From: a virus | Lineage: Duplodnaviria; Heunggongvirae; Uroviricota; Caudoviricetes | DNA: 64,000 bases | Virus record (IMG/VR): IMGVR_UViG_3300035698_029829 | Coordinates: 7,427 to 71,426 of that record | Direction: 5' to 3' (one strand) | Shown: positions 19,147 through 59,462 of the stretch, in pieces | Numbering within the stretch: position 1 is the first letter of the stretch | Layout of the letters: each line of letters begins with the position of its first letter | Notes under the pieces: model-generated | The model's input: only the letters and a program-made list of their open reading frames with translations | Told to the model about the DNA's origin: nothing | Database searches by the model: none | Program-made: the position numbers and the translations under genes

Positions 19147-20337
19147 TCATCCTTTCACTCCACCTTTCTTCTCGCCGCCTTTGACAACGGCGAAGGGTCG
19201 AATCACATCCTTTATCTCCACGACAACGCCTTTCTGGGCGTTGATAACGTAATCCTCGTCCTTGTAAGCACGCGGAGCCTCGTCCAGCGTATCCGCACTC
19301 ACCGGCGCGAGGATACCAGCCATATCGGCCTGGAATTCACCCAGATCCAGCGTCTTCTTGGCCTTCGAGCGTCCCATCAGACGGCCCGCGCCGTGCGACG
19401 CCGAGGACAGGTACTCCTCGTTACCGAGGCCCACCGTCACGTAGACACCCGCGCCCATGCTGATCGGGATCACCCCGAGCTGGCCCTTGTCTGCCGGAGT
19501 CGCGCCCTTACGGTGTAATACGCCGTCCGGTCGAACCACCGCGTGGTTGTGGTTCTCGTTCACCATCCCTTCAAACATCGGCCGCTGCTCCCACTTGGAG
19601 AAGCCAAGTGTAGTCAGCGCCGCAATCATCATTCGGCGACGATTCTCCAGCGCGTATTCCAGGAAGAAGTCCAAGTCCTGCATGTACGCCTGGCCCAGAT
19701 CCGAATTGAGGGCGAAGAACCGATCCTTCTTGGCAATCCGCATATACACGTCCGCCGATTTCCAGCCCGGCCCGCGCGACCCCGAATGGATCGTAACACA
19801 AACCTCGCCGGTTTGCTCGCTGACGCCCAGCTCCAGGAAGTGGTTGCCCGCGCCGAGCGTGCCAACCTGGTGCCCAAGCTTCGCGTTGATCTCCTGCTCC
19901 TTCCTTTTTACGTCCACTCGGCCCTCGGCCAGTTCCGGATCAAAGGAGAACCGGAACGACTTGTACTCCTGTCGCTGCGCGTGGTTCGAGTTTAGGCCCA
20001 CCGGAATAGTCTCGAACAACCGCTGCCACACCGGCCGCACGTTGTGTTCCCGCACATCGGCGTCATCGCGCGACCCGTGGAATAGCTGCTCGAAGGTTCG
20101 GCCCGTACGAACCAAGCACATGCCGCAACCCTGGTCGTAACCAACGTAATACGGACTCACCATGCCATCGAGCAAAGCAACCCCGCCGATGGGTAGGTCG
20201 TAGCCCTGGTGCACGTCCGGCATCACAACGAGCCGCTTCAGAAACGGCAGTTCCAGCGCCGCGTATATCTGCTGCTGTGCGCCTTGCTCGATCTCGTGCA
20301 TGGGCACCAACATCCATAATTTTTCGATCTTACTCAT
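19147..20337 (-). CDS. rtcB: RtcB RNA ligase
   Basis: MPDVH, DQGCG, GAGNHFLE, HSGSRG, NHN, HRKGAT, SHGAGR, EAP.AYK. Confidence 0.96.
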   Translation of the reverse strand: MSKIEKLWMLVPMHEIEQGAQQQIYAALELPFLKRLVVMPDVHQGYDLPIGGVALLDGMVSPYYVGYDQGCGMCLVRTGRTFEQLFHGSRDDADVREHNVRPVWQRLFETIPVGLNSNHAQRQEYKSFRFSFDPELAEGRVDVKRKEQEINAKLGHQVGTLGAGNHFLELGVSEQTGEVCVTIHSGSRGPGWKSADVYMRIAKKDRFFALNSDLGQAYMQDLDFFLEYALENRRRMMIAALTTLGFSKWEQRPMFEGMVNENHNHAVVRPDGVLHRKGATPADKGQLGVIPISMGAGVYVTVGLGNEEYLSSASHGAGRLMGRSKAKKTLDLGEFQADMAGILAPVSADTLDEAPRAYKDEDYVINAQKGVVVEIKDVIRPFAVVKGGEKKGGVKG

Positions 20338-33172: not shown

Positions 33173-33284
33173 CCCCCGCCCATTGGGAAATCAGGACTCG
33201 AACCTGAGCGACCGGGGGTGACCTGCTCTACCAGTTGAGCTACCAAGGCAAGCCTTGGACGGGGCTTGAACCCGCGTCTTGGTC
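33173..33284 (-). ncRNA. Circularly permuted tRNA-elbow RNA with a second T-arm module
   Basis: GACC, T arm, CCAAGG-CTTG-CCTTGG closed acceptor, D arm, GGTC; then CCCCCG/CGGGGG enclosing another T arm. Confidence 0.7.
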
Positions 33285-33522: not shown

Positions 33523-33527
33523 TTAAG

Positions 33528-33602
33528 TTACCAGGGAAGGAATCGAACCTCCAGTCTTCGAGCTTTTAACGACTCGACGCGCTACCACTGCACCACCCGG
33601 TA
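33528..33602 (-). tRNA. tRNA with expanded (8-10 nt) anticodon loop, identity unclear
   Basis: TACCGGG/CCTGGTA, normal D and T arms, TCGAG-TCGTTAAAAG-CTCGA. Confidence 0.65.
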
Positions 33603-33606
33603 TTAG

Positions 33607-33681
33607 TGGTGCGCCAGGTAGGAATTGAACCCACGTGGGCGGAGTTAGAACCCGCTGCCTAAACCATTCGGCCACTGGCGC
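33607..33681 (-). tRNA. Amber suppressor tRNA (CTA)
   Basis: GCGGG-TT-CTA-AC-TCCGC anticodon arm, intact cloverleaf, A73-CCA. Confidence 0.8.
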
Positions 33682-48466: not shown

Positions 48467-48469
48467 ATG

Positions 48470-48542
48470 GGTGAACGACGGGAGTCGAACCCGCTAAAAC
48501 CTGGGTCACAGCCAGGTGCCTCACCGTTTGGCTTCGATCACC
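48470..48542 (-). tRNA. tRNA-His(GTG)
   Basis: G-1:C73, loop CT-GTG-AC. Confidence 0.88.
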
Positions 48543-48549
48543 GTATAAT

Positions 48550-48693
48550 GAGTCCGGCGGCGAGAGTGAGCGGCGTGGGGGTATTGGCTCACTTGGTGGG
48601 AGTTGAACCCACGTCCTTCAGATTAATAGTCTGCTGCTCTACCATCAGAGCTTCAGGTGAAGTACCCCACGCCTGTGCTGCGCCGCCAGGCTC
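48550..48693 (-). ncRNA. Y RNA-like module carrying a complete tRNA-Asn-like body (anticodon ATT)
   Basis: Begins about 14 nt after the Ro60 stop; GGCGGCG/CGCCGCC, CAGCACAG/CGCTCACTCT, N8 stem; tRNA at 48585-48660 with U1-A72, G73, CCA. Confidence 0.78.
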
Positions 48694-48706
48694 AGATTGT
48701 CAAAGA

Positions 48707-50866
48707 TCAATATGTTGCCCGAATCTCTTCGAGCGTCATCCGCTTCCGCCCGCTCTCGCTGACGGTCGCCTCAATCACCGTTTCATCGACCTCCAGATCG
48801 GCGCTCGACACCTCTGCTTTGCGCCCCACCTCAGCGGACACCATCATGTCGAAGATGTACTCGCTGAAGCCCGACAGCAGGTTTACGTTCGTGTGCCGGT
48901 CGAGCGGCGTCACCGCCATGTGGTTGTGGTCGAGGTTGACACAGTGCAACCAAGTATCCGGCTGCATCCGCTTGAACTTCTCCCACTCCCCAGCGAAGGA
49001 TAGCAACGCCCGACCATCGTTCCCCGCGAAACTGTCGGTGTAGATATTCTGGTCGTTCCAGAACTGCTGATCCGAGAACACGATCACCCGCTTGAACTTA
49101 CGACCCGTCTGAAGCAGCAACGACGGCACCAAGTGAACGTTCGTGCTGTGCCCAACGTACAAGTCGGAGTACAGTTCGTTGCGAGCGATTCGTTCCATGC
49201 TGGATACGACCGAATCGCGCTTCAGCACCTGACGGATCTGTGCGCTCTCACCGAAAGCGACAACCAGTGTGCGCGGGTTACGCTTGGCCGCGATGGCTCC
49301 GAAGAGAGCAGCCACCTCACGACAGCTGATCTCAGAACCCTGGCCCCTGGCGTCCTTCTTCTCGTCGCCACTTGACACCCGGTTATCCATCGATCCGGAC
49401 AGGTCGACCAAAATCGCGGTGTACTCGTCGGCCGCATCAGCTTCGCTCAAATTTGGTACGCTCTCGGCCTGAAGCTCCATCGCCTCGATAACCGCCTCAT
49501 GGACCTCATCGAGTTGCGGGTGCTTCTCCCAACCGGTCTTATCGCTCTTCCCAAAGGTATTCCCGCTCCATAGCTTCGCATGGATCGAACCCTTGGTGTA
49601 CAGGCCCTCAGTACCCAGCGCCCGCAGTGCCGACCAGTAACGGTACGGGAACTGCCGCGCCTTCGCGATGGCTTGCCGGTTCGTCAGCTTCGAAATCACG
49701 AGTCGCACCGTCTCGGCGTTACGCTCATCCACGAGTTTCAAGCCCTCGGCCTTCTTGACCTTCGCCCGGGCCTCGGCCCCGGCGGTCAAGATGTTCCGGA
49801 CGTTCCGCAAGAGATTCATGTACGACGTGTTCCGAGCAACCCACGCCCAAGTGCGAGCATCGGAGCCCCATTGCGACGTAACGTTCTCCTGCGTCAAACG
49901 GGCAACCTTGACGAGCCGCTCCGTCTCCGCGTCGAACTCCATCCGCTTGAATGCCTTGACGCGAGCCACGATCAGCGGCATCTCACGCTCGGCATCGAAC
50001 GGTACGATCTGCCCGCCGCAGTAGGTCTTGCCGTTGTCGGTTGATCGCTCGCAGATACCGTAATTATCAGCGAACAGCGTTCCACATTTCTCACAGACGC
50101 CGGTTGGCAGCCTGCGTTTGAGCAGGTAAAACCACTTCGCCGAGGACCACCGCTTGCGCCGACCTTTCTTACGGAAATCGACGAGATGCAGCAAATCCGT
50201 AAACGTCGGGTGCTGCTCAGTATCGTATTTCAGGAGCAATCCGGCGTCGAACCTGGTCAGCGCGTCCATAAGCCCGCGCAGAAAGGCGTTCGGGTGCTTC
50301 TTGGCACGCACGTAACCCTTGTTCACATCCAAATCACCGAAGAGTGCTTCGTAGGCGGCCAGCGCCACACGCGGCTCGTCGGCTCGCAGGCAAATCTTCG
50401 GAGCGTACAACCGCACCAGTGACTGCTGGTCAAGCTTCGTCCCTGCGAGTGGTGCCTGGAGTACCCGCGTACCGTCTTCGTGGGCGGCCACAGCCAGGAG
50501 TACCTGAGCTGCCGTCCGGATGTTAAGTTTGTCGCGCGCGAACGCGGCGATCTTAAACAAGTCGCTGGCGTACCCATCCGTGCGAGCCGCAACCTCTTGA
50601 GCCGTCTGAATCAGGACATTGTCGCCCTCAGTCAACCCCAACTCATCACGCCCCTTGTCGTAGAAACTGGTCTCCTTGAAGAAGCCCGCTGCTACCAAGT
50701 TGAGCAAGCGTTCCGACGGGTCCTTGATGTTGAATGCCAACGCACCCTCCGCGTTCTCGCCCACCTCGTCCAATTCGCGCAGGTCGACCTCAGTCTTCAC
50801 CTCGACGGCGCGAGCGCGATCCTTCAGAGTTTTCTGCGTGTTCTTCTGCATTCCGATCTTAGCCAT
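48707..50866 (-). CDS. rsr: Ro60/TROVE-domain RNA-binding protein with C-terminal vWA domain
   Basis: ERL.......E.SFY, FARDKLNIRT, RADE, KY, LLRNVRNIL, RQFPYRY.SA, VDLSGSM, FSD.Q. Confidence 0.88.
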   Translation of the reverse strand: MAKIGMQKNTQKTLKDRARAVEVKTEVDLRELDEVGENAEGALAFNIKDPSERLLNLVAAGFFKETSFYDKGRDELGLTEGDNVLIQTAQEVAARTDGYASDLFKIAAFARDKLNIRTAAQVLLAVAAHEDGTRVLQAPLAGTKLDQQSLVRLYAPKICLRADEPRVALAAYEALFGDLDVNKGYVRAKKHPNAFLRGLMDALTRFDAGLLLKYDTEQHPTFTDLLHLVDFRKKGRRKRWSSAKWFYLLKRRLPTGVCEKCGTLFADNYGICERSTDNGKTYCGGQIVPFDAEREMPLIVARVKAFKRMEFDAETERLVKVARLTQENVTSQWGSDARTWAWVARNTSYMNLLRNVRNILTAGAEARAKVKKAEGLKLVDERNAETVRLVISKLTNRQAIAKARQFPYRYWSALRALGTEGLYTKGSIHAKLWSGNTFGKSDKTGWEKHPQLDEVHEAVIEAMELQAESVPNLSEADAADEYTAILVDLSGSMDNRVSSGDEKKDARGQGSEISCREVAALFGAIAAKRNPRTLVVAFGESAQIRQVLKRDSVVSSMERIARNELYSDLYVGHSTNVHLVPSLLLQTGRKFKRVIVFSDQQFWNDQNIYTDSFAGNDGRALLSFAGEWEKFKRMQPDTWLHCVNLDHNHMAVTPLDRHTNVNLLSGFSEYIFDMMVSAEVGRKAEVSSADLEVDETVIEATVSESGRKRMTLEEIRATY

Positions 50867-50940
50867 GACACTTTCCTCCTCCGGCGAGAAATTGGTGTTG
50901 CGCCGGATTTTACGACCAGCCACCATGACCAGCCGTCACC

Positions 50941-51264
50941 TTAACTAAATATGCCCTTTCGCCACTTTCTAAATCTTTCCCCAAAGGACGACCTGTTGAT
51001 TGGTTGGGGCCGCGCAGCAGCCCGTACCCGCAGCTGTTCGTCGGTCGGCATCATCACCTGAGCACGGCGTCCCATCGCAAGTTGCACAATAAATTCGTGC
51101 CACTCGGGTGCTACGCCCGTCAAGTCGAAGGTGGCGGGTACACGTGCAACCACCTGACCACCTTGCACCAAATCAATGTTGTCGAGAATGGTGAACTTCG
51201 CGTCCTGCACGACGATCACCCCCTTCCCATCATTGACCAATATGTTGCCGTCGTTCATGGGCAT
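50941..51264 (-). CDS. Hypothetical protein
   Basis: SD AAGGAG; directly upstream of Ro60. Confidence 0.6.
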   Translation of the reverse strand: MPMNDGNILVNDGKGVIVVQDAKFTILDNIDLVQGGQVVARVPATFDLTGVAPEWHEFIVQLAMGRRAQVMMPTDEQLRVRAAARPQPINRSSFGERFRKWRKGIFS

Positions 51265-51393: not shown

Positions 51394-51472
51394 TGGTACC
51401 CCCGACAGGATTCGAACCTGCGACCTCAGCGTTCGTAGCGCTGCGCTCTAATTCCAACTGAGCTACGGGGGC
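51394..51472 (-). tRNA. tRNA-Arg(ACG)
   Basis: Loop CT-ACG-AA, CCA. Confidence 0.92.
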
Positions 51473-51475
51473 GCA

Positions 51476-51552
51476 TGGTAGATGCGGGGGGGAGTCGAAC
51501 CCCCAACGTCTTGATTAAGAGTCAAGTGCTCTGCCAATTGAGCTACACATCC
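51476..51552 (-). tRNA. tRNA-Lys(CTT)
   Basis: Loop CT-CTT-AA, CCA. Confidence 0.92.
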
Positions 51553-51559
51553 ACAGTAG

Positions 51560-51632
51560 TAGGCGCGAAGGGACTTGAACCCTCAACGTCCGGATTAAAA
51601 GTCCGGTGCTCTACCAGTTGAGCTACGCGCCC
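51560..51632 (-). tRNA. tRNA-Lys(TTT)
   Basis: Loop CT-TTT-AA. Confidence 0.92.
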
Positions 51633-56725: not shown

Positions 56726-58117
56726 TTACTGAGAAGCCAGAAATTCCCGAAGAAACATCCGGCCACCTTCCTCATCCTCAAACTTCCCGTCAAGCTGCGC
56801 TTCGAAACAGGCATCCAGCACAGGACGAAAGTGCTTGCCTGGGTTCCAACCCAGATCCATCAGGTGCCGACCCATCACAATGGGTTTCGGGGCCTGATCT
56901 CGCACGCCGAGTTCTTCGATGCGTTCCAAGAGCCACGTTGCAAACCGGTTATCAGGCTTCAAAGGAGGCCGACCGGCCTGATCGCACGCGGCTACCCGCA
57001 ACAACCGATCTACGCGCTTAACGCGACGAGCGAGCCGCCGGATCGCCGAACTAGAGGCTTTTACCTCGAAAAGTTCAAGGGGCTTCAGGTGTTCCACAAC
57101 CAAGTCGCAAACCTCGGTGTCGAGGCCGTGTTCGTTGGTCAAGCGTGCCAGGAAGCTCCGCGTCGGTGCGGCCCCCGCCGCTTCGTGTCCCTTCGACTTC
57201 CAGCGTCCATCTAAGAACGCGGTCGTCTCAGGCTTACCAAAGTCATGACAGAGTACCGCCAACCCGACCACCAGGTCTTCGCGAGAATCGCCGGTGCGTG
57301 TATGCGCGAAGGCATCCAGACAGTGCTTGGTGTGTTCAAACACATCCCCCTCGGGATGCCACGCTGGATTTTGCGGGCAATCCACGAGAGCCTCGACCTC
57401 CGGAAAGAACCGAAGCCACCCTACCTCGCGCAGGAAGTCGAGTCCAAGCGACGGTCGAACTCCCCGCAGGAGTAACTTCTGCCACTCATCGAACAGGCGT
57501 TCCTTCGGCAGATCCTCGATGTCGCCGCGCCGACAAACCTCAACGAGATCGTCGGACGGCTCAAAGTCGAACCGTGCCAGGAACTGCGCCGCTCGTAAGA
57601 CCCTCAATGGGTCCTCCAAAAAAGCGTCGGGGTTGGGGTGACCGGGCATCCGAGAAACCGGATGTAACAGGCGTGCCCGCAGATGCGTCTGACCGTCAAA
57701 CGGATCAAACAGATCATCGGTTAACGGGTCCCAGGATAAAGAGTTGATGGTGAAATCTCGACGTGCCGCCGCTTCAGCGACGGTCATGGTTGGATCGGAG
57801 TTGATCTCGAAACCTCGGTGTCCGAGACCTCGCTTGCTCTCGCGGCGAGGGATGGACACGTCGACGGGGAAATCCTTCAGTTTGAGTACACCGAAATCTT
57901 TACCAACCAGGTCAAGTGCGAAACCATGCGACAGCGTGTCGACCAATCTGTCGGGGCTAAGGCCGAAAACCTCTACGTCGAGATCATTCGGCTCATTCTC
58001 CAATAGAAGATCGCGCACACAACCGCCAACGAGTAGCGCGCGTCCACGCGCCCTCTCTACGCTCCGGCAAAGGGAAAGCAGCGCTTCCCGCGCCGGAAGC
58101 CGATGAAGTGCTTCCAT
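56726..58117 (-). CDS. cca: CCA-adding enzyme/tRNA nucleotidyltransferase with HD domain
   Basis: VGGCVRD, DLDVE, RRDFTIN, EDPLRVLR, ERL..EW.K, H.EGDV..H, LCHDFGK. Confidence 0.9.
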   Translation of the reverse strand: MEALHRLPAREALLSLCRSVERARGRALLVGGCVRDLLLENEPNDLDVEVFGLSPDRLVDTLSHGFALDLVGKDFGVLKLKDFPVDVSIPRRESKRGLGHRGFEINSDPTMTVAEAAARRDFTINSLSWDPLTDDLFDPFDGQTHLRARLLHPVSRMPGHPNPDAFLEDPLRVLRAAQFLARFDFEPSDDLVEVCRRGDIEDLPKERLFDEWQKLLLRGVRPSLGLDFLREVGWLRFFPEVEALVDCPQNPAWHPEGDVFEHTKHCLDAFAHTRTGDSREDLVVGLAVLCHDFGKPETTAFLDGRWKSKGHEAAGAAPTRSFLARLTNEHGLDTEVCDLVVEHLKPLELFEVKASSSAIRRLARRVKRVDRLLRVAACDQAGRPPLKPDNRFATWLLERIEELGVRDQAPKPIVMGRHLMDLGWNPGKHFRPVLDACFEAQLDGKFEDEEGGRMFLREFLASQ

Positions 58118-58147
58118 GATGTTCTCCCTTCGCGTTAATGTTGATAA

Positions 58148-58221
58148 CTCCTGGAGAGGGAATCGAACCCCCGACATCTCGGTTAACGGCCGAGCGCTCT
58201 GGCCTGCTGAGCTATCCAGGA
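58148..58221 (-). tRNA. tRNA-Asn(GTT), C33
   Basis: U1-A72, G73, loop CC-GTT-AA. Confidence 0.9.
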
Positions 58222-58898
58222 ATAATTCCGTACCTTTTAGCCCACTTCCGAACCGCATTGTCGGTCACTCCATACCGTTTGCCGATCTGCGTGAATGGGA
58301 TCTTCTCGTCAATCAGATTCATGAGTTCGTCTTTCGAGGGCCACTCGACTTTTCTGCGCGCCAACTGAAAGCACTTCTGTGAACAGAACTTCTGCCTTAT
58401 TTTCTTAGGAGCCCCACAGATAGGACAGGGATCAACAGGGGCCTCGCGCTTCGGAAAGGCTCTCGACTCATCGCGAAGGCTAGAAATACGCACGCGATAA
58501 TCCTCGGCCCAGAGCGGCTCTCGCCCGTTGCTCCCTTTTAACGGGGCAACCCTCAGCGAGCACCAGCTAGTACCAACAGCCTCTACCGGAACCAAATAAA
58601 CCTCATCCAGTTCAGGACAAAACACCCCAAAAAACTCACACTGGCCTCGGTAATTTCTTGTACCTCGCCCTCGGTGAGCATAGCTACTACACAAATTGAA
58701 CCCTATCGCACCGTTCTTCAAGCGACCCGTCTTAACCTGAATCCGCACAAAAACGCCGTCGCGATCAAGCACCAGGTCGTAGCGTTGATTATCGCCGAAA
58801 GGAAACAAGACAACCTCAGCCGCCTTCAACAAAGAAGCCATCACAGCCGCTTCTGACCGTTCGCCTATCGCCTTCGAGTTCATCTGCACCTCCAACAA
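58212..58898 (-). CDS. PD-(D/E)xK endonuclease of the group I intron-associated type
   Basis: G..SE, RYDLVLD..G..VRIQVKTG; CPIC and C-terminal HTH; TAG stop is U8-A9-G10 of tRNA-Asn. Confidence 0.78.
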   Translation of the reverse strand: MLEVQMNSKAIGERSEAAVMASLLKAAEVVLFPFGDNQRYDLVLDRDGVFVRIQVKTGRLKNGAIGFNLCSSYAHRGRGTRNYRGQCEFFGVFCPELDEVYLVPVEAVGTSWCSLRVAPLKGSNGREPLWAEDYRVRISSLRDESRAFPKREAPVDPCPICGAPKKIRQKFCSQKCFQLARRKVEWPSKDELMNLIDEKIPFTQIGKRYGVTDNAVRKWAKRYGIIPG

Positions 58899-59339: not shown

Positions 59340-59462
59340 ACAAAAAACGAGGGGGAAGGGGTTCGCCCTCCCCCCTCGGTGGTTTTCATGGCGACGAATG
59401 AACATATTTAATTGTCAAAGAACGAACTTTCTTTGCACTCCGACGAGAGCGCAGCATCGTGA

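What the first reader, a model, noticed from the sequence alone, without database searches (positions are those of the whole stretch)
48550..48693. The RNA directly behind Ro60 cages a full tRNA-Asn with anticodon ATT
Seen: a boxA-like site overlaps the Ro60 stop, then a 13-bp outer stem, the module, and a tRNA with U1-A72, G73, encoded CCA, A8 instead of U8 and loop CT-ATT-AA. A normal tRNA-Asn(GTT) exists separately at 58148. Both whole-tRNA cargos in the family have A34. Inference: occupies the usual Y RNA position but presents a complete anticodon arm, as bait or a releasable tRNA.
Basis: partly seen in the sequence, partly recalled or inferred. Interest (0 to 1): 0.75.

Follow-up and report, generated by a model that had tools for sequence, protein, structure and literature searches.

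The report
Phage Y RNA carrying whole tRNA
Right behind the Ro60 gene of an uncultured salt-lake phage lies a conserved small RNA in which a complete, normally ordered tRNA, with anticodon arm and CCA, is clamped between the two strands of the handle that this phage's four other Y-like RNAs share; it is a new layout of the known tRNA-mimicking Y RNAs, not a dedicated tRNA-Asn.

Summary
On the minus strand at 48693-48550, 13 nt after the stop of a 739-aa Ro60 homolog (Pfam TROVE; the model matches only Ro60 structures), a 76-nt cloverleaf sits inside a long leader/trailer helix. ARAGORN and Rfam call it a tRNA (55.9 bits). The leader/trailer duplex is -45.6 kcal/mol against a median of -17.4 for the phage's 50 tRNAs.

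The helix carries a handle found at five loci, here GCG-CAGCACAG-N8-UACUUC ... CUCACUCU-CGC. One of these loci (56487-56358) matches Rfam YrlA over its full length at 46.4 bits, below the gathering score. So this is most likely a Y RNA paralogue.

Two orthologs behind related Ro60 genes keep the architecture. RNAalifold finds 12 pairs with double changes; 9 of my 37 hand-drawn pairs show them, against 0 of 500 shuffles.

The "tRNA-Asn/A34" reading is not conserved. The orthologs have CUU and an 8-nt loop around CUU. U1 and C2 belong to the family motif UACUUC.

Best reading (about 0.55): a Ro60-bound Y RNA that displays an unpermuted tRNA, with elbow and anticodon arm exposed and acceptor end locked. 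Bait and releasable-tRNA readings remain open and untested.

It is a new variant of a known kind. This scan had already noted the five-RNA family in this genome, and unchecked notes describe Ro60-like partner RNAs with tRNA bodies in other phages.

The parts
48707..50926 (-). Ro60 (TROVE + vWA) homolog, 739 aa from the first ATG (a 719-aa form is in the protein database as P0001)
   Evidence: Pfam PF05731 at 32.1 bits; PHROG 850 at E 5e-26; the model matches Ro60 structures 9nep, 2i91, 1yvp, 2nvo, 9kop and 9l5y
48697..48708 (-). boxA-like GATCTTTGACAA overlapping the TGA stop (48709-48707)
   Evidence: 2 mismatches to GCTCTTTAACAA; 13 such sites in the window against 3.8 expected; 5 exact TCTTTGACAA on the minus strand before tRNA or ncRNA genes. 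Function not tested
48681..48694 (-). 5' strand of the basal (outer) stem, UGAG-C-CUGGCGGCG
   Evidence: MFE fold; RNAalifold pairs; 7 invariant G-C pairs plus covarying outer pairs
48673..48680 (-). 5' half of the handle loop, CAGCACAG, with the preceding GCG invariant in all five paralogs
   Evidence: CAGCCCAG in ortholog L028
48663..48672 (-). 5' strand of the upper stem (N8 plus UA)
   Evidence: 4 of 9 pairs show double changes among the orthologs
48659..48664 (-). Family motif UACUUC, covering tRNA positions -4 to +2. In the paralog at 56487-56358 it aligns to the GNCGAA box of Rfam YrlA
48585..48660 (-). Complete tRNA-like cloverleaf in normal order: acceptor stem, D arm with A8/U14 and G18G19, anticodon arm (anticodon AUU at 48627-48625), 5-nt variable loop, T arm with UUCAACU, G73 (48588) and CCA (48587-48585)
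   Evidence: ARAGORN; Rfam RF00005 at 55.9 bits; covariation in the acceptor and T stems
48572..48583 (-). 3' strand of the upper stem, UACCCCCACGCC, with one bulged C
48563..48571 (-). 3' half of the handle loop, GCUCACUCU
   Evidence: its CU pairs with AG of the 5' half
48549..48562 (-). 3' strand of the basal stem, CGCCGCCGG-A-CUCA. tRNA-His with an encoded G-1 follows at 48542/48541

Best explanation
It is a Y RNA, a partner RNA of the phage's own Ro60. Its protein-binding handle is formed by its 5' and 3' ends, and its effector module is a complete, unpermuted tRNA. SHOWN: the RNA folds into a basal stem, a conserved internal loop, an upper stem and a cloverleaf. The architecture is kept with compensatory changes in three phage lineages, always directly behind Ro60. 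The handle recurs on four other RNAs of the phage with different cargo, one of which is a YrlA-type permuted tRNA mimic. INFERRED: Ro60 binds the handle, that is the CAGCACAG / CUCACUCU loop and the UACUUC box. That box sits where YrlA has its GNCGAA box and spans the acceptor end from -4 to +2. The acceptor end with G73-CCA-A is thereby held as an internal loop next to the protein, while the tRNA elbow and the anticodon arm point away. The RNA then acts as a stable tRNA look-alike that tethers Ro60 to a factor recognising the elbow or anticodon side of tRNA. This mirrors YrlA, which displays the acceptor and elbow side. The phage also encodes about 49 other tRNAs, a tmRNA, RtcB and a CCA-adding enzyme, so the likely setting is tRNA surveillance or repair during infection. 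RNase P may nick the RNA at U-1/U1, as happens to M. smegmatis YrlA, without freeing the tRNA. The anticodon is not used to decode a fixed codon.
For: Position and strand relative to Ro60 come, and Ro60 identity by fold. The fold has z -4.3. The leader/trailer duplex is 4.6 sd beyond the phage's other tRNAs. The handle is shared by five loci with exactly 8 nt between CAG and UACUUC. The paralog at 56487-56358 matches Rfam YrlA over its full length at 46.4 bits, E 9e-10. Orthologs lie directly behind Ro60 genes of 77% and 57% identity. In my hand-drawn structure 95.5% of cells pair and 9 pairs show double changes, against 0 of 500 shuffles; RNAalifold independently finds 45 pairs, 12 of them compensatory. 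The anticodon loop differs in each lineage (AUU, CUU, 8-nt loop) while the rest of the arm is invariant. The Levitt pair 15-48 is not kept in the orthologs and the acceptor stem has one mismatch in each (read). The cargo is not a recent copy of any phage tRNA, with at most 70% identity. Published precedent: phage Ro60 binds phage-encoded Y-like RNAs and host PNPase (PMC12135203), and Y RNAs are modular tRNA mimics (PMC4201824, 10.1101/312249).
Against: There is no binding, transcript or processing data of any kind. The handle lacks the published GNCGAAN0-1G box, and this RNA does not hit Rfam YrlA or Y_RNA. G73-CCA-A is invariant and unpaired in all three lineages, and U-1 precedes the acceptor stem; both are what a processed, functional tRNA would need. 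The tRNA scores as well as many of the phage's real tRNAs (55.9 bits, within their range of 30-73). The ortholog with a clean CUU anticodon (L027) comes from a contig that shows no free-standing tRNA-Lys(CUU) at the place where this phage has one, which hints at possible decoding use. Only three lineages are available, and two of them are about 92% identical.
Confidence: 0.55

Rival explanations
1. Bait or decoy: still a Ro60-bound Y RNA, but the working surface is the Lys/Asn-type anticodon loop (C/A-U-N-U-U-A-A). It soaks up or reports a host anticodon nuclease or another tRNA-targeting defence, perhaps handing cut ends to the phage RtcB.
For: A complete anticodon arm is displayed away from the handle. 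U33, U35, U36, A37, A38 and four stem pairs are invariant in three lineages while position 34 varies. The phage carries RtcB and a CCA-adding enzyme. From my own knowledge, tRNA-Lys is a known target of PrrC and of PARIS AriB, and phages are reported to carry tRNAs that evade such nucleases.
Against: No nuclease, host or cleavage data exist. The 8-nt loop in L028 and the change at position 34 alter the site that PrrC-type enzymes cut. Conservation across three sequences is weak evidence.
Confidence: 0.17
2. Releasable or caged tRNA: the RNA is a precursor of a working tRNA, ancestrally Lys(CUU)-like. Its leader and trailer pair and bind Ro60. RNase P and a 3' trimming activity, possibly Ro60 with PNPase, free a 76-nt tRNA when needed.
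For: It has an encoded G73-CCA held unpaired, U at -1 and a 7-bp acceptor stem. The elbow is canonical (G18G19, UUCAANU), and the loop has 7 nt with U33 here and in L027. It scores 55.9-57.2 bits as tRNA. L027 shows no separate tRNA-Lys(CUU) in its short contig. M. smegmatis YrlA is cut by RNase P and receives CCA (PMC4201824).
Against: The anticodon changes between close relatives, and one has an 8-nt loop. The RNA has A8/U14, an acceptor-stem mismatch, G27.A43 and a non-canonical 15-48 pair in the orthologs. G73 differs from the A73 of the phage's real tRNA-Lys genes. About 20 bp of leader/trailer helix begin 2 nt from the cleavage site, and a conserved U-1.G73 wobble is predicted; from my own knowledge both are expected to hinder RNase P and exonucleolytic trimming. 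The phage already has free Asn(GUU), Lys(CUU) and Lys(UUU) tRNAs.
Confidence: 0.17
3. A cis element of the Ro60 transcript rather than a trans-acting RNA: a tRNA-like 3' end or processing signal, or an autoregulatory Ro60 binding site, that sets the 3' end or stability of the Ro60 mRNA.
For: It begins 13 nt after the stop codon with no promoter-like or terminator-like site between. This position is kept in both orthologs.
Against: The same handle occurs at four loci that are not behind Ro60. A full cloverleaf with an anticodon arm is more than a processing signal needs.
Confidence: 0.07
4. A decaying pseudo-tRNA whose flanks pair by chance.
For: It has A8, stem mismatches and an unusual anticodon.
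Against: RNA identity to L027 is about 92%, read by eye, while the adjacent Ro60 proteins are only 77% identical. Changes in three helices are compensatory. The duplex energy is an outlier. The handle is shared by five loci.
Confidence: 0.02

Closest known systems
YrlA Y RNAs (Rfam RF02553; S. Typhimurium, M. smegmatis, mycobacteriophages; Chen et al. 2014 PMC4201824; Wang et al. 2018 doi 10.1101/312249)
   Same: Encoded next to Ro60 on the same strand. Modular, with the 5' and 3' ends forming a long stem and the other end being a tRNA mimic with D and T arms. A paralog with the same handle in this phage matches the YrlA model over its full length.
   Different: YrlA is circularly permuted (T arm, closed acceptor hairpin, D arm). 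It joins the Ro60 stem through the anticodon stem, and by the published description it lacks an anticodon loop and a CCA end. Here the order is normal, the Ro60 stem continues from the acceptor end, and a full anticodon arm and G73-CCA are present. The GNCGAA box is replaced by UACUUC plus the CAGCACAG loop. This RNA has no RF02553 hit.
D. radiodurans Yrn1 (Chen et al. 2014, PMC4201824)
   Same: Per the paper, the stem-loop between the D-like and T arms takes the place of the anticodon arm, so the tRNA-like part is in normal order on top of the Ro60 stem.
   Different: By the paper's description Yrn1 has only partial D-loop features, a 6-nt 'anticodon' loop, no variable region and no CCA, and tRNA finders do not recognise it. 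Here ARAGORN and Rfam call a tRNA. Homology to Yrn1 was not tested, because no Yrn1 sequence was at hand.
Thermus phage phiLo Ro60 with Yrl1/Yrl2 (NAR 2025, PMC12135203)
   Same: A phage-encoded Ro60 with several phage-encoded Y-like RNAs beside the gene. The phage Ro60 fold matches this protein's model (9kop and 9l5y).
   Different: The phiLo Yrls were picked by a CGAA motif and lie upstream of the gene. No whole-tRNA cargo is described.
Ordinary tRNA genes (Rfam RF00005), in particular tRNA-Asn and tRNA-Lys
   Same: A 76-nt cloverleaf scoring 55.9 bits, with U33, G18G19, T-loop, G53-C61, G73 and CCA. The nearest annotated phage tRNAs are Asn and Lys.
   Different: Leader and trailer form a helix of about 20 bp with a conserved loop. 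It has A8/U14. The anticodon is not conserved among orthologs. The acceptor end looks Asn-like (U1-A72, G73) while the ancestral anticodon is CUU, which is Lys.
Handle-bearing partner RNAs of Ro60-like (DUF2828) proteins noted by this scan in other phages (unchecked AI notes e1-5385145, e1-5326859)
   Same: Several small RNAs per phage share one handle and carry tRNA pieces or whole tRNA bodies beside a Ro60-shaped protein.
   Different: The protein family and handle differ: a clamp helix followed by ACAGCAA there, against TROVE and the CAGCACAG / CUCACUCU internal loop here. I did not test whether the two handles are related.

Membership tests
Y RNA (general definition) | Encoded near Ro60 on the same strand | tested here: met
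   It starts 13 nt after the Ro60 stop on the minus strand, and the same holds in L027 and L028
Y RNA (general definition) | The 5' and 3' ends pair into a long stem that carries the Ro60 site | tested here: met
   The stem forms and covaries. That it carries the Ro60 site is inferred only
Y RNA (general definition) | Bound and stabilised by Ro60 | not testable with these tools
   No RNA-protein predictor was available and no RNA runs are listed
YrlA (RF02553) | Score at or above the Rfam gathering score (69 bits) | tested here: not met
   This RNA has no hit. Paralog m56 reaches 46.4 bits over the full length
YrlA (RF02553) | GNCGAAN0-1G box near the 5' end | tested here: not met
   GGGUACUUC occupies the place of the box
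YrlA (RF02553) | Permuted order: T arm, closed acceptor hairpin, D arm, with no anticodon loop | tested here: not met
   The order is normal and a 7-nt anticodon loop is present
YrlA (RF02553) | tRNA-like D and T arms with elbow nucleotides | tested here: met
   G18G19 and UUCAANU are invariant in three lineages
tRNA (RF00005) | Covariance-model score above gathering and detection by a tRNA finder | tested here: met
   55.9 bits against 29; ARAGORN
tRNA (RF00005) | Anticodon and 7-nt loop conserved among orthologs, as expected for a decoder | tested here: not met
   AUU, CUU and an 8-nt loop
tRNA (RF00005) | Canonical tertiary positions U8-A14 and R15-Y48 | tested here: not met
   A8/U14 in all three. 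Pair 15-48 is G-C here, U/U in L027 and C/U in L028 (read)
tRNA-Asn | G34-U35-U36 anticodon plus G73 (E. coli AsnRS identity set, own knowledge) | tested here: not met
   G73 is present, but position 34 is A here and C in the orthologs
Ro60 / TROVE protein (the neighbour) | TROVE HEAT-repeat ring plus vWA domain | tested here: met
   Pfam TROVE is above its cut-off. The model aligns over 640-670 columns to Ro60 structures, TM by target about 0.6. phmmer against PDB sequences found nothing, so the protein is divergent

The most novel reading that the evidence does not exclude
A Ro60-gated tRNA. Ro60 clamps the leader/trailer handle and the UACUUC box across the RNase P site, holding a complete Lys/Asn-type tRNA in reserve. 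The tRNA is either freed on demand by RNase P plus Ro60-assisted 3' trimming, or offered as a sacrificial anticodon arm to a host tRNA nuclease. Either way it would be the first Y RNA whose cargo is a usable tRNA, and a living intermediate between tRNA genes and Y RNAs.
Probability: 0.2. Interest if true: 0.85.

Novelty: new variant of a known kind. Interest (0 to 1): 0.6.

Why it matters
Y RNAs are known to imitate parts of tRNA, and Chen et al. proposed that they arose from tRNAs. The published types, however, are permuted or incomplete and lack an anticodon loop and CCA. Here one phage carries the same handle, presumed to bind Ro60, on a permuted YrlA-type mimic, on two normal-order tRNA bodies and on minimal hairpins. 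This shows that handle and cargo are exchangeable modules. It also shows a form that is one step away from an ordinary tRNA gene with paired flanks. The two layouts would hold Ro60 at opposite ends of the tRNA shape, which gives a direct way to ask which face of the tRNA mimic matters for Y RNA function. In a phage with about 50 tRNAs, a tmRNA, RtcB and a CCA-adding enzyme, it also bears on how phages guard or repair their translation apparatus against tRNA-targeting host defences.

Tried and rejected
1. Pattern scans for the handle. GCGCAGCACAG-N5-14-TACTTC in IMG/VR gave 26 hits, none with the 3' module, so all are chance. The stricter handle-plus-D-arm pattern in JGI metagenomes and IMG/VR gave only copies of the two orthologs already found (L037 = L028, L038 = L027) plus chance hits in coding DNA.
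2. The search for related loci with the Ro60 protein in IMG/VR found no relatives.
3. The search for shorter Ro60 fragments gave one distant fragment and no further ortholog. The contig of P0004 ends inside the gene.
4. Expression: no RNA holder is listed among the sequencing runs. Laying contigs of four other salt-lake DNA runs gave only unrelated tRNA fragments and one identical contig, so there is no population variation data.
5. Origin of the cargo: it is not a recent duplicate of any of the phage's tRNAs, with at most 68-70% identity spread over many isoacceptors. BLAST against annotated phage tRNAs gives a mixture of Asn and Lys, with a few Met and Thr, so the isotype cannot be assigned.
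6. Other Ro60-encoding phages (HGTV-1, Streptomyces LuckySocke, Myxococcus Mx1) showed no caged tRNA, only a weak YrlA hit upstream of the LuckySocke gene.
7. A phage-encoded partner: no RNase PH/PNPase-type or class IIb aaRS domain is found in the 156.7-kb record, which is only about 62% complete.
8. phmmer of the Ro60 against PDB sequences found nothing. Fold comparison was needed to place the protein.
9. TTGACA inside the boxA-like site as a -35 element: rejected, because no -10 follows and the relatives read TTGATA and TTTATA.
10. A relation of this handle to the 'clamp helix + ACAGCAA' handle of earlier scan notes was considered. It was not tested, and the layouts differ.

Full report
**Setting.** The window lies in a 156,689-bp virus record, G000:C1:7427-71426, that CheckV estimates to be about 62% complete. 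DNA runs that hold the stretch are salt-lake metagenomes. The genes are those of a large tailed phage: tail sheath, SbcCD, RtcB ligase at 19147-20337(-) and a CCA-adding enzyme at 56726-58258(-). ARAGORN finds 50 tRNA-like genes and a tmRNA, all on the minus strand, and Rfam confirms them. The tmRNA and the encoded G-1 of tRNA-His point to a bacterial host (own knowledge).

**The neighbouring protein.** The ORF at 48707-50926(-) has 739 aa.
- It has a Pfam TROVE hit above the curated cut-off and matches PHROG 850, 'RNA-binding protein'.
- By tblastn it finds 'Ro-like RNA binding proteins' of Streptomyces, Arthrobacter, Mycobacterium and Myxococcus phages and of halovirus HGTV-1, at 23-28% identity.
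- phmmer against PDB sequences found nothing.
- An AlphaFold model built on 17 homologs (pLDDT 70.9) has Ro60 structures as its 13 best PDB matches, aligned over 640-670 columns. They are from Xenopus, human, D. radiodurans Rsr and Thermus phage phiLo.

It is therefore a divergent, somewhat enlarged Ro60.

**The observation.** Read on the minus strand, the elements follow in this order:
- the stop TGA at 48709-48707, inside GATCTTTGACAA
- a basal stem, UGAG-C-CUGGCGGCG, paired with CGCCGCCGG-A-CUCA
- an internal loop, CAGCACAG opposite GCUCACUCU
- an upper stem, GCGUGGGGUA paired with UACCCCCACGC, with one bulged C
- a junction with CU on the 5' side and GCCAA on the 3' side
- a 76-nt cloverleaf at 48660-48585

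The cloverleaf has U1-A72, a C5.A68 mismatch, A8 with U14 (a swap of the usual U8-A14) and G18G19. Its anticodon stem has four pairs plus G27.A43, and the loop reads C-U-A-U-U-A-A. A 5-nt variable loop, a T arm with UUCAACU, G73 and CCA complete it.

ARAGORN calls it tRNA-Asn(att), and Rfam tRNA gives 55.9 bits, inside the 30-73 range of the phage's other tRNAs. RNAfold gives the whole architecture at -64 kcal/mol, z -4.3.

As a control I computed the best duplex between the 40 nt upstream and the 40 nt downstream of every tRNA in the window. This one reaches -45.6 kcal/mol. The next best is -27.3, the median is -17.4 and the sd is 6.1.

**A family with one handle.** Searching the genome for the two halves of the loop found five minus-strand loci. 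All follow one scheme: [variable stem] GCG CAGCACAG N8 UACUUC ... cargo ... N3(A/U)(A/C)(C/U)UCU CGC [variable stem]. The N8 block is different in each and, in the five sequences I paired by hand or by RNAalifold (m48, m39, m36 and the two orthologs), pairs with a 3' partner.

| Locus | Cargo |
|---|---|
| 59076-58951 | T arm plus a hairpin |
| 56487-56358 | T arm, closed acceptor-like hairpin, D arm |
| 48693-48550 | complete tRNA in normal order (this finding) |
| about 39640-39555 | one small hairpin (82 nt in all) |
| 36593-about 36470 | second normal-order tRNA body with a long variable arm (ARAGORN 'Cys(aca)', loop CCACAAA without U33) |

The 56487-56358 RNA matches Rfam YrlA from position 1 to 114 at 46.4 bits, E 9e-10. 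That is below the gathering score of 69 but is by far the best YrlA match in the genome. In that alignment the phage's GGCUACUUC lies on YrlA's GGCGAAUGC, the GNCGAAN0-1G box that Chen et al. link to Ro60 binding (PMC4201824). The handle is thus the one thing shared by RNAs with unrelated cargo, one of them is a recognisable Y RNA, and the phage encodes Ro60. That is the basis for calling the present RNA a Y RNA paralogue. Binding itself is inferred.

**Orthologs.** The protein database holds three close relatives of this Ro60, at 77, 57 and 55% identity. Two of their contigs reach past the gene.
- In L027 (77%) and in L028, which equals L029 and L037 (57%), the same RNA follows the stop codon.
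- Alignment A1 shows 86% mean column identity. All changes in stems are compensatory or wobble.
- With the structure drawn by hand, 95.5% of cells pair and 9 of 37 pairs show double changes: upper stem 4, acceptor 2, T stem 3. No shuffle out of 500 reaches this, and slid controls pair at about 40%.
- RNAalifold, run without my structure, returns the same architecture with 45 pairs, 12 of them compensatory. It adds A-U and G-C pairs inside the handle loop and a conserved U-1.G73 wobble.
- Invariant in all three are GCG-CAGC, CAGG, A8, U14, the D stem, G18G19, four anticodon-stem pairs, U33, U35, U36, A37, A38, G53-C61, UUCAA, U1-A72, C2-G71, G73-CCA-A and ACUCUCGCCGCC.

**What is not conserved.**
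- The anticodon loop reads CUAUUAA here, CUCUUAA in L027 (ARAGORN: Lys, ctt) and AUCUUAAA in L028, an 8-nt loop.
- L027 is the sister lineage and L028 the outgroup, and both have C at 34. A34 is therefore most simply a change in this phage's lineage, and the ancestral triplet was CUU.
- The 15-48 pair is G-C here but U/U and C/U in the relatives.
- Each lineage has one acceptor-stem mismatch.
- U1 and C2 are the last two letters of UACUUC, which all five family members carry. U1-A72 therefore reflects the handle, not Asn identity.
- G73 does match the phage's tRNA-Asn and differs from the A73 of its two tRNA-Lys genes. The body thus mixes an Asn-like acceptor end with a Lys-like ancestral anticodon.
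- It is not a recent copy of any tRNA of the phage, with at most 70% identity. The nearest annotated phage tRNAs are a mixture of Asn and Lys.

From my own knowledge, AsnRS needs G34 and bacterial TadA reads U33-A34-C35-G36. Neither Asn charging nor inosine formation is therefore expected.

**How it most likely works.**
- Shown: the fold, its conservation, the shared handle and the position behind Ro60.
- Inferred, transcription: the RNA is read through from Ro60, since no promoter-like or terminator-like site lies between. The nearest terminator-like hairpin, at 48189-48172, follows the three tRNA-Arg genes. The promoter and terminator scans are at chance level.
- Inferred, the boxA-like element: the word TCTTTGACAA recurs exactly five times on the minus strand in front of tRNA or ncRNA genes. 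It may serve antitermination of this long non-coding operon.
- Inferred, the 3' end: RNase P processing of tRNA-His would set it a few nucleotides past the basal stem.
- Inferred, binding: Ro60 binds the handle. If UACUUC is part of the site, as its alignment to the YrlA box suggests, the protein sits on the acceptor end, across the RNase P site (U-1/U1) and next to the unpaired GCCAA.
- Inferred, geometry: the tRNA elbow and anticodon arm then point away from Ro60. In YrlA the Ro60 stem continues from the anticodon stem, and the acceptor hairpin and elbow are displayed (10.1101/312249). This phage therefore has both presentations on one handle.

I take the RNA to be a tether that brings Ro60 to a factor recognising the elbow or anticodon side of tRNA. 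The setting is tRNA surveillance or repair, together with RtcB and the CCA-adding enzyme. Host PNPase is the precedent partner (PMC12135203). I give this reading 0.55.

**Rivals.**
- A bait for tRNA-cutting defences (0.17) is a special case of the main reading. It fits the invariant UUAA half of the loop but has no direct support.
- A releasable tRNA (0.17) fits the invariant unpaired G73-CCA, U-1, the 7-bp acceptor stem and the clean CUU loop of L027. That short contig shows tRNA-Lys(UUU) and Arg(ACG) but no free Lys(CUU) where this phage has one. Against it stand the drifting anticodon, the 8-nt loop, A8/U14, the mismatches, and a helix of about 20 bp that starts 2 nt from the cleavage site.
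- A purely cis role for the Ro60 mRNA (0.07) does not explain the four other loci.
- Decay (0.02) is contradicted by the covariation.

**Comparison with the literature.** Chen et al. 2014 found YrlA RNAs beside Ro60 in 254 bacteria and 22 phages. They describe them as permuted mimics of the D, T and acceptor arms. They describe D. radiodurans Yrn1 as having a normal-order layout with a 5-bp 'anticodon' stem, a 6-nt loop and no variable region. [quoted passage not shown] Wang et al. state that YrlA lacks an anticodon loop and a free CCA end. The phiLo study shows a phage Ro60 binding two phage Y-like RNAs and host PNPase. My full-text searches returned no paper whose title or abstract describes a Y RNA containing a complete tRNA with anticodon loop, variable loop, discriminator and CCA. 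The library misses most subscription journals, and two reviews could not be opened. The RNA fails the defining tests for YrlA (score, box, permutation). It meets the general Y RNA criteria that can be tested by sequence. I file it as a new variant of a known kind.

**Relation to earlier notes of this scan** (unchecked AI notes).
- The five-RNA family (e1-5441195) and the two permuted members (e1-5441201) were already noted in this genome. I re-derived the family and the YrlA match myself.
- In other phages the scan has repeatedly noted handle-bearing RNAs beside Ro60-like DUF2828 genes, some carrying whole tRNA bodies (e1-5385145, e1-5326859).
- Modular tRNA cargo on Ro60-type handles may therefore be common in phages. 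The handle and the protein family here are different, and I did not test a link.

**Limits.** Only three lineages are known, two of them close. There are no transcript, binding or processing data. The host is unknown, and the virus record is incomplete.

Noticed in passing
window 59954, 59421, 48706, 39261, 33724 (minus strand, first base of the motif): Exact TCTTTGACAA, resembling the rrn boxA core GCTCTTTAACAA, occurs five times on the minus strand in front of tRNA or ncRNA genes. The copies at 59421 and 39261 share the longer TCTTTGACAATTAAATA. Boxes with up to 2 mismatches number 13 in the window against 3.8 expected. They may be antitermination sites of the long tRNA operons.
   Followed up: partly
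window 50941-51264 (-); L027:1394-1711; L028:423-737: A small ORF of 104-107 aa with no Pfam family sits directly upstream of Ro60 in all three phage lineages, so it is a candidate partner of the Ro60 particle.
   Followed up: no
window 39640-39555 (-): The fifth family member is a minimal Y-like RNA of about 82 nt. It has the full handle (basal stem GUUCGCG/CGCGAAC, loop CAGCACAG / CGCUUAUCU, 8-bp upper stem with three G.U pairs) but only a small hairpin as cargo.
   Followed up: partly
window 48469-48542 (-): The tRNA-His next to the caged tRNA also has A8 instead of U8, here with A14, and an encoded G-1. These two neighbours are the only tRNA-like genes of the 50 whose ninth-base prefix reads GAA at positions 7-9.
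   Followed up: no
L027:214-1259 compared with window 51394-51632: In the relative whose caged tRNA reads CUU, the upstream cluster has tRNA-Lys(UUU) and Arg(ACG) but no free tRNA-Lys(CUU). This phage and L028, which do have a free Lys(CUU), carry an altered loop in the caged copy (AUU, or 8 nt). With three short contigs this is only a hint that the caged copy may once have decoded.
   Followed up: partly
window 33527-33681 (-): Adjacent odd tRNAs: one with anticodon CUA (amber-reading; ARAGORN labels it Pyl) and one with an 8-nt loop (UUAA).
   Followed up: no
window 33218-33283 (-) (G000:C1:40644-40709): The second-best partial match to the YrlA model in the genome, 36.6 bits over model positions 23-88.
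   Followed up: no
L042:4386-4618 (Streptomyces phage LuckySocke): A manA RNA match (47.8 bits, below the gathering score of 55.2) lies between the two tRNA-Lys genes just downstream of that phage's Ro-like gene. A weak YrlA match (33.8 bits) lies upstream at 1855-1969.
   Followed up: no
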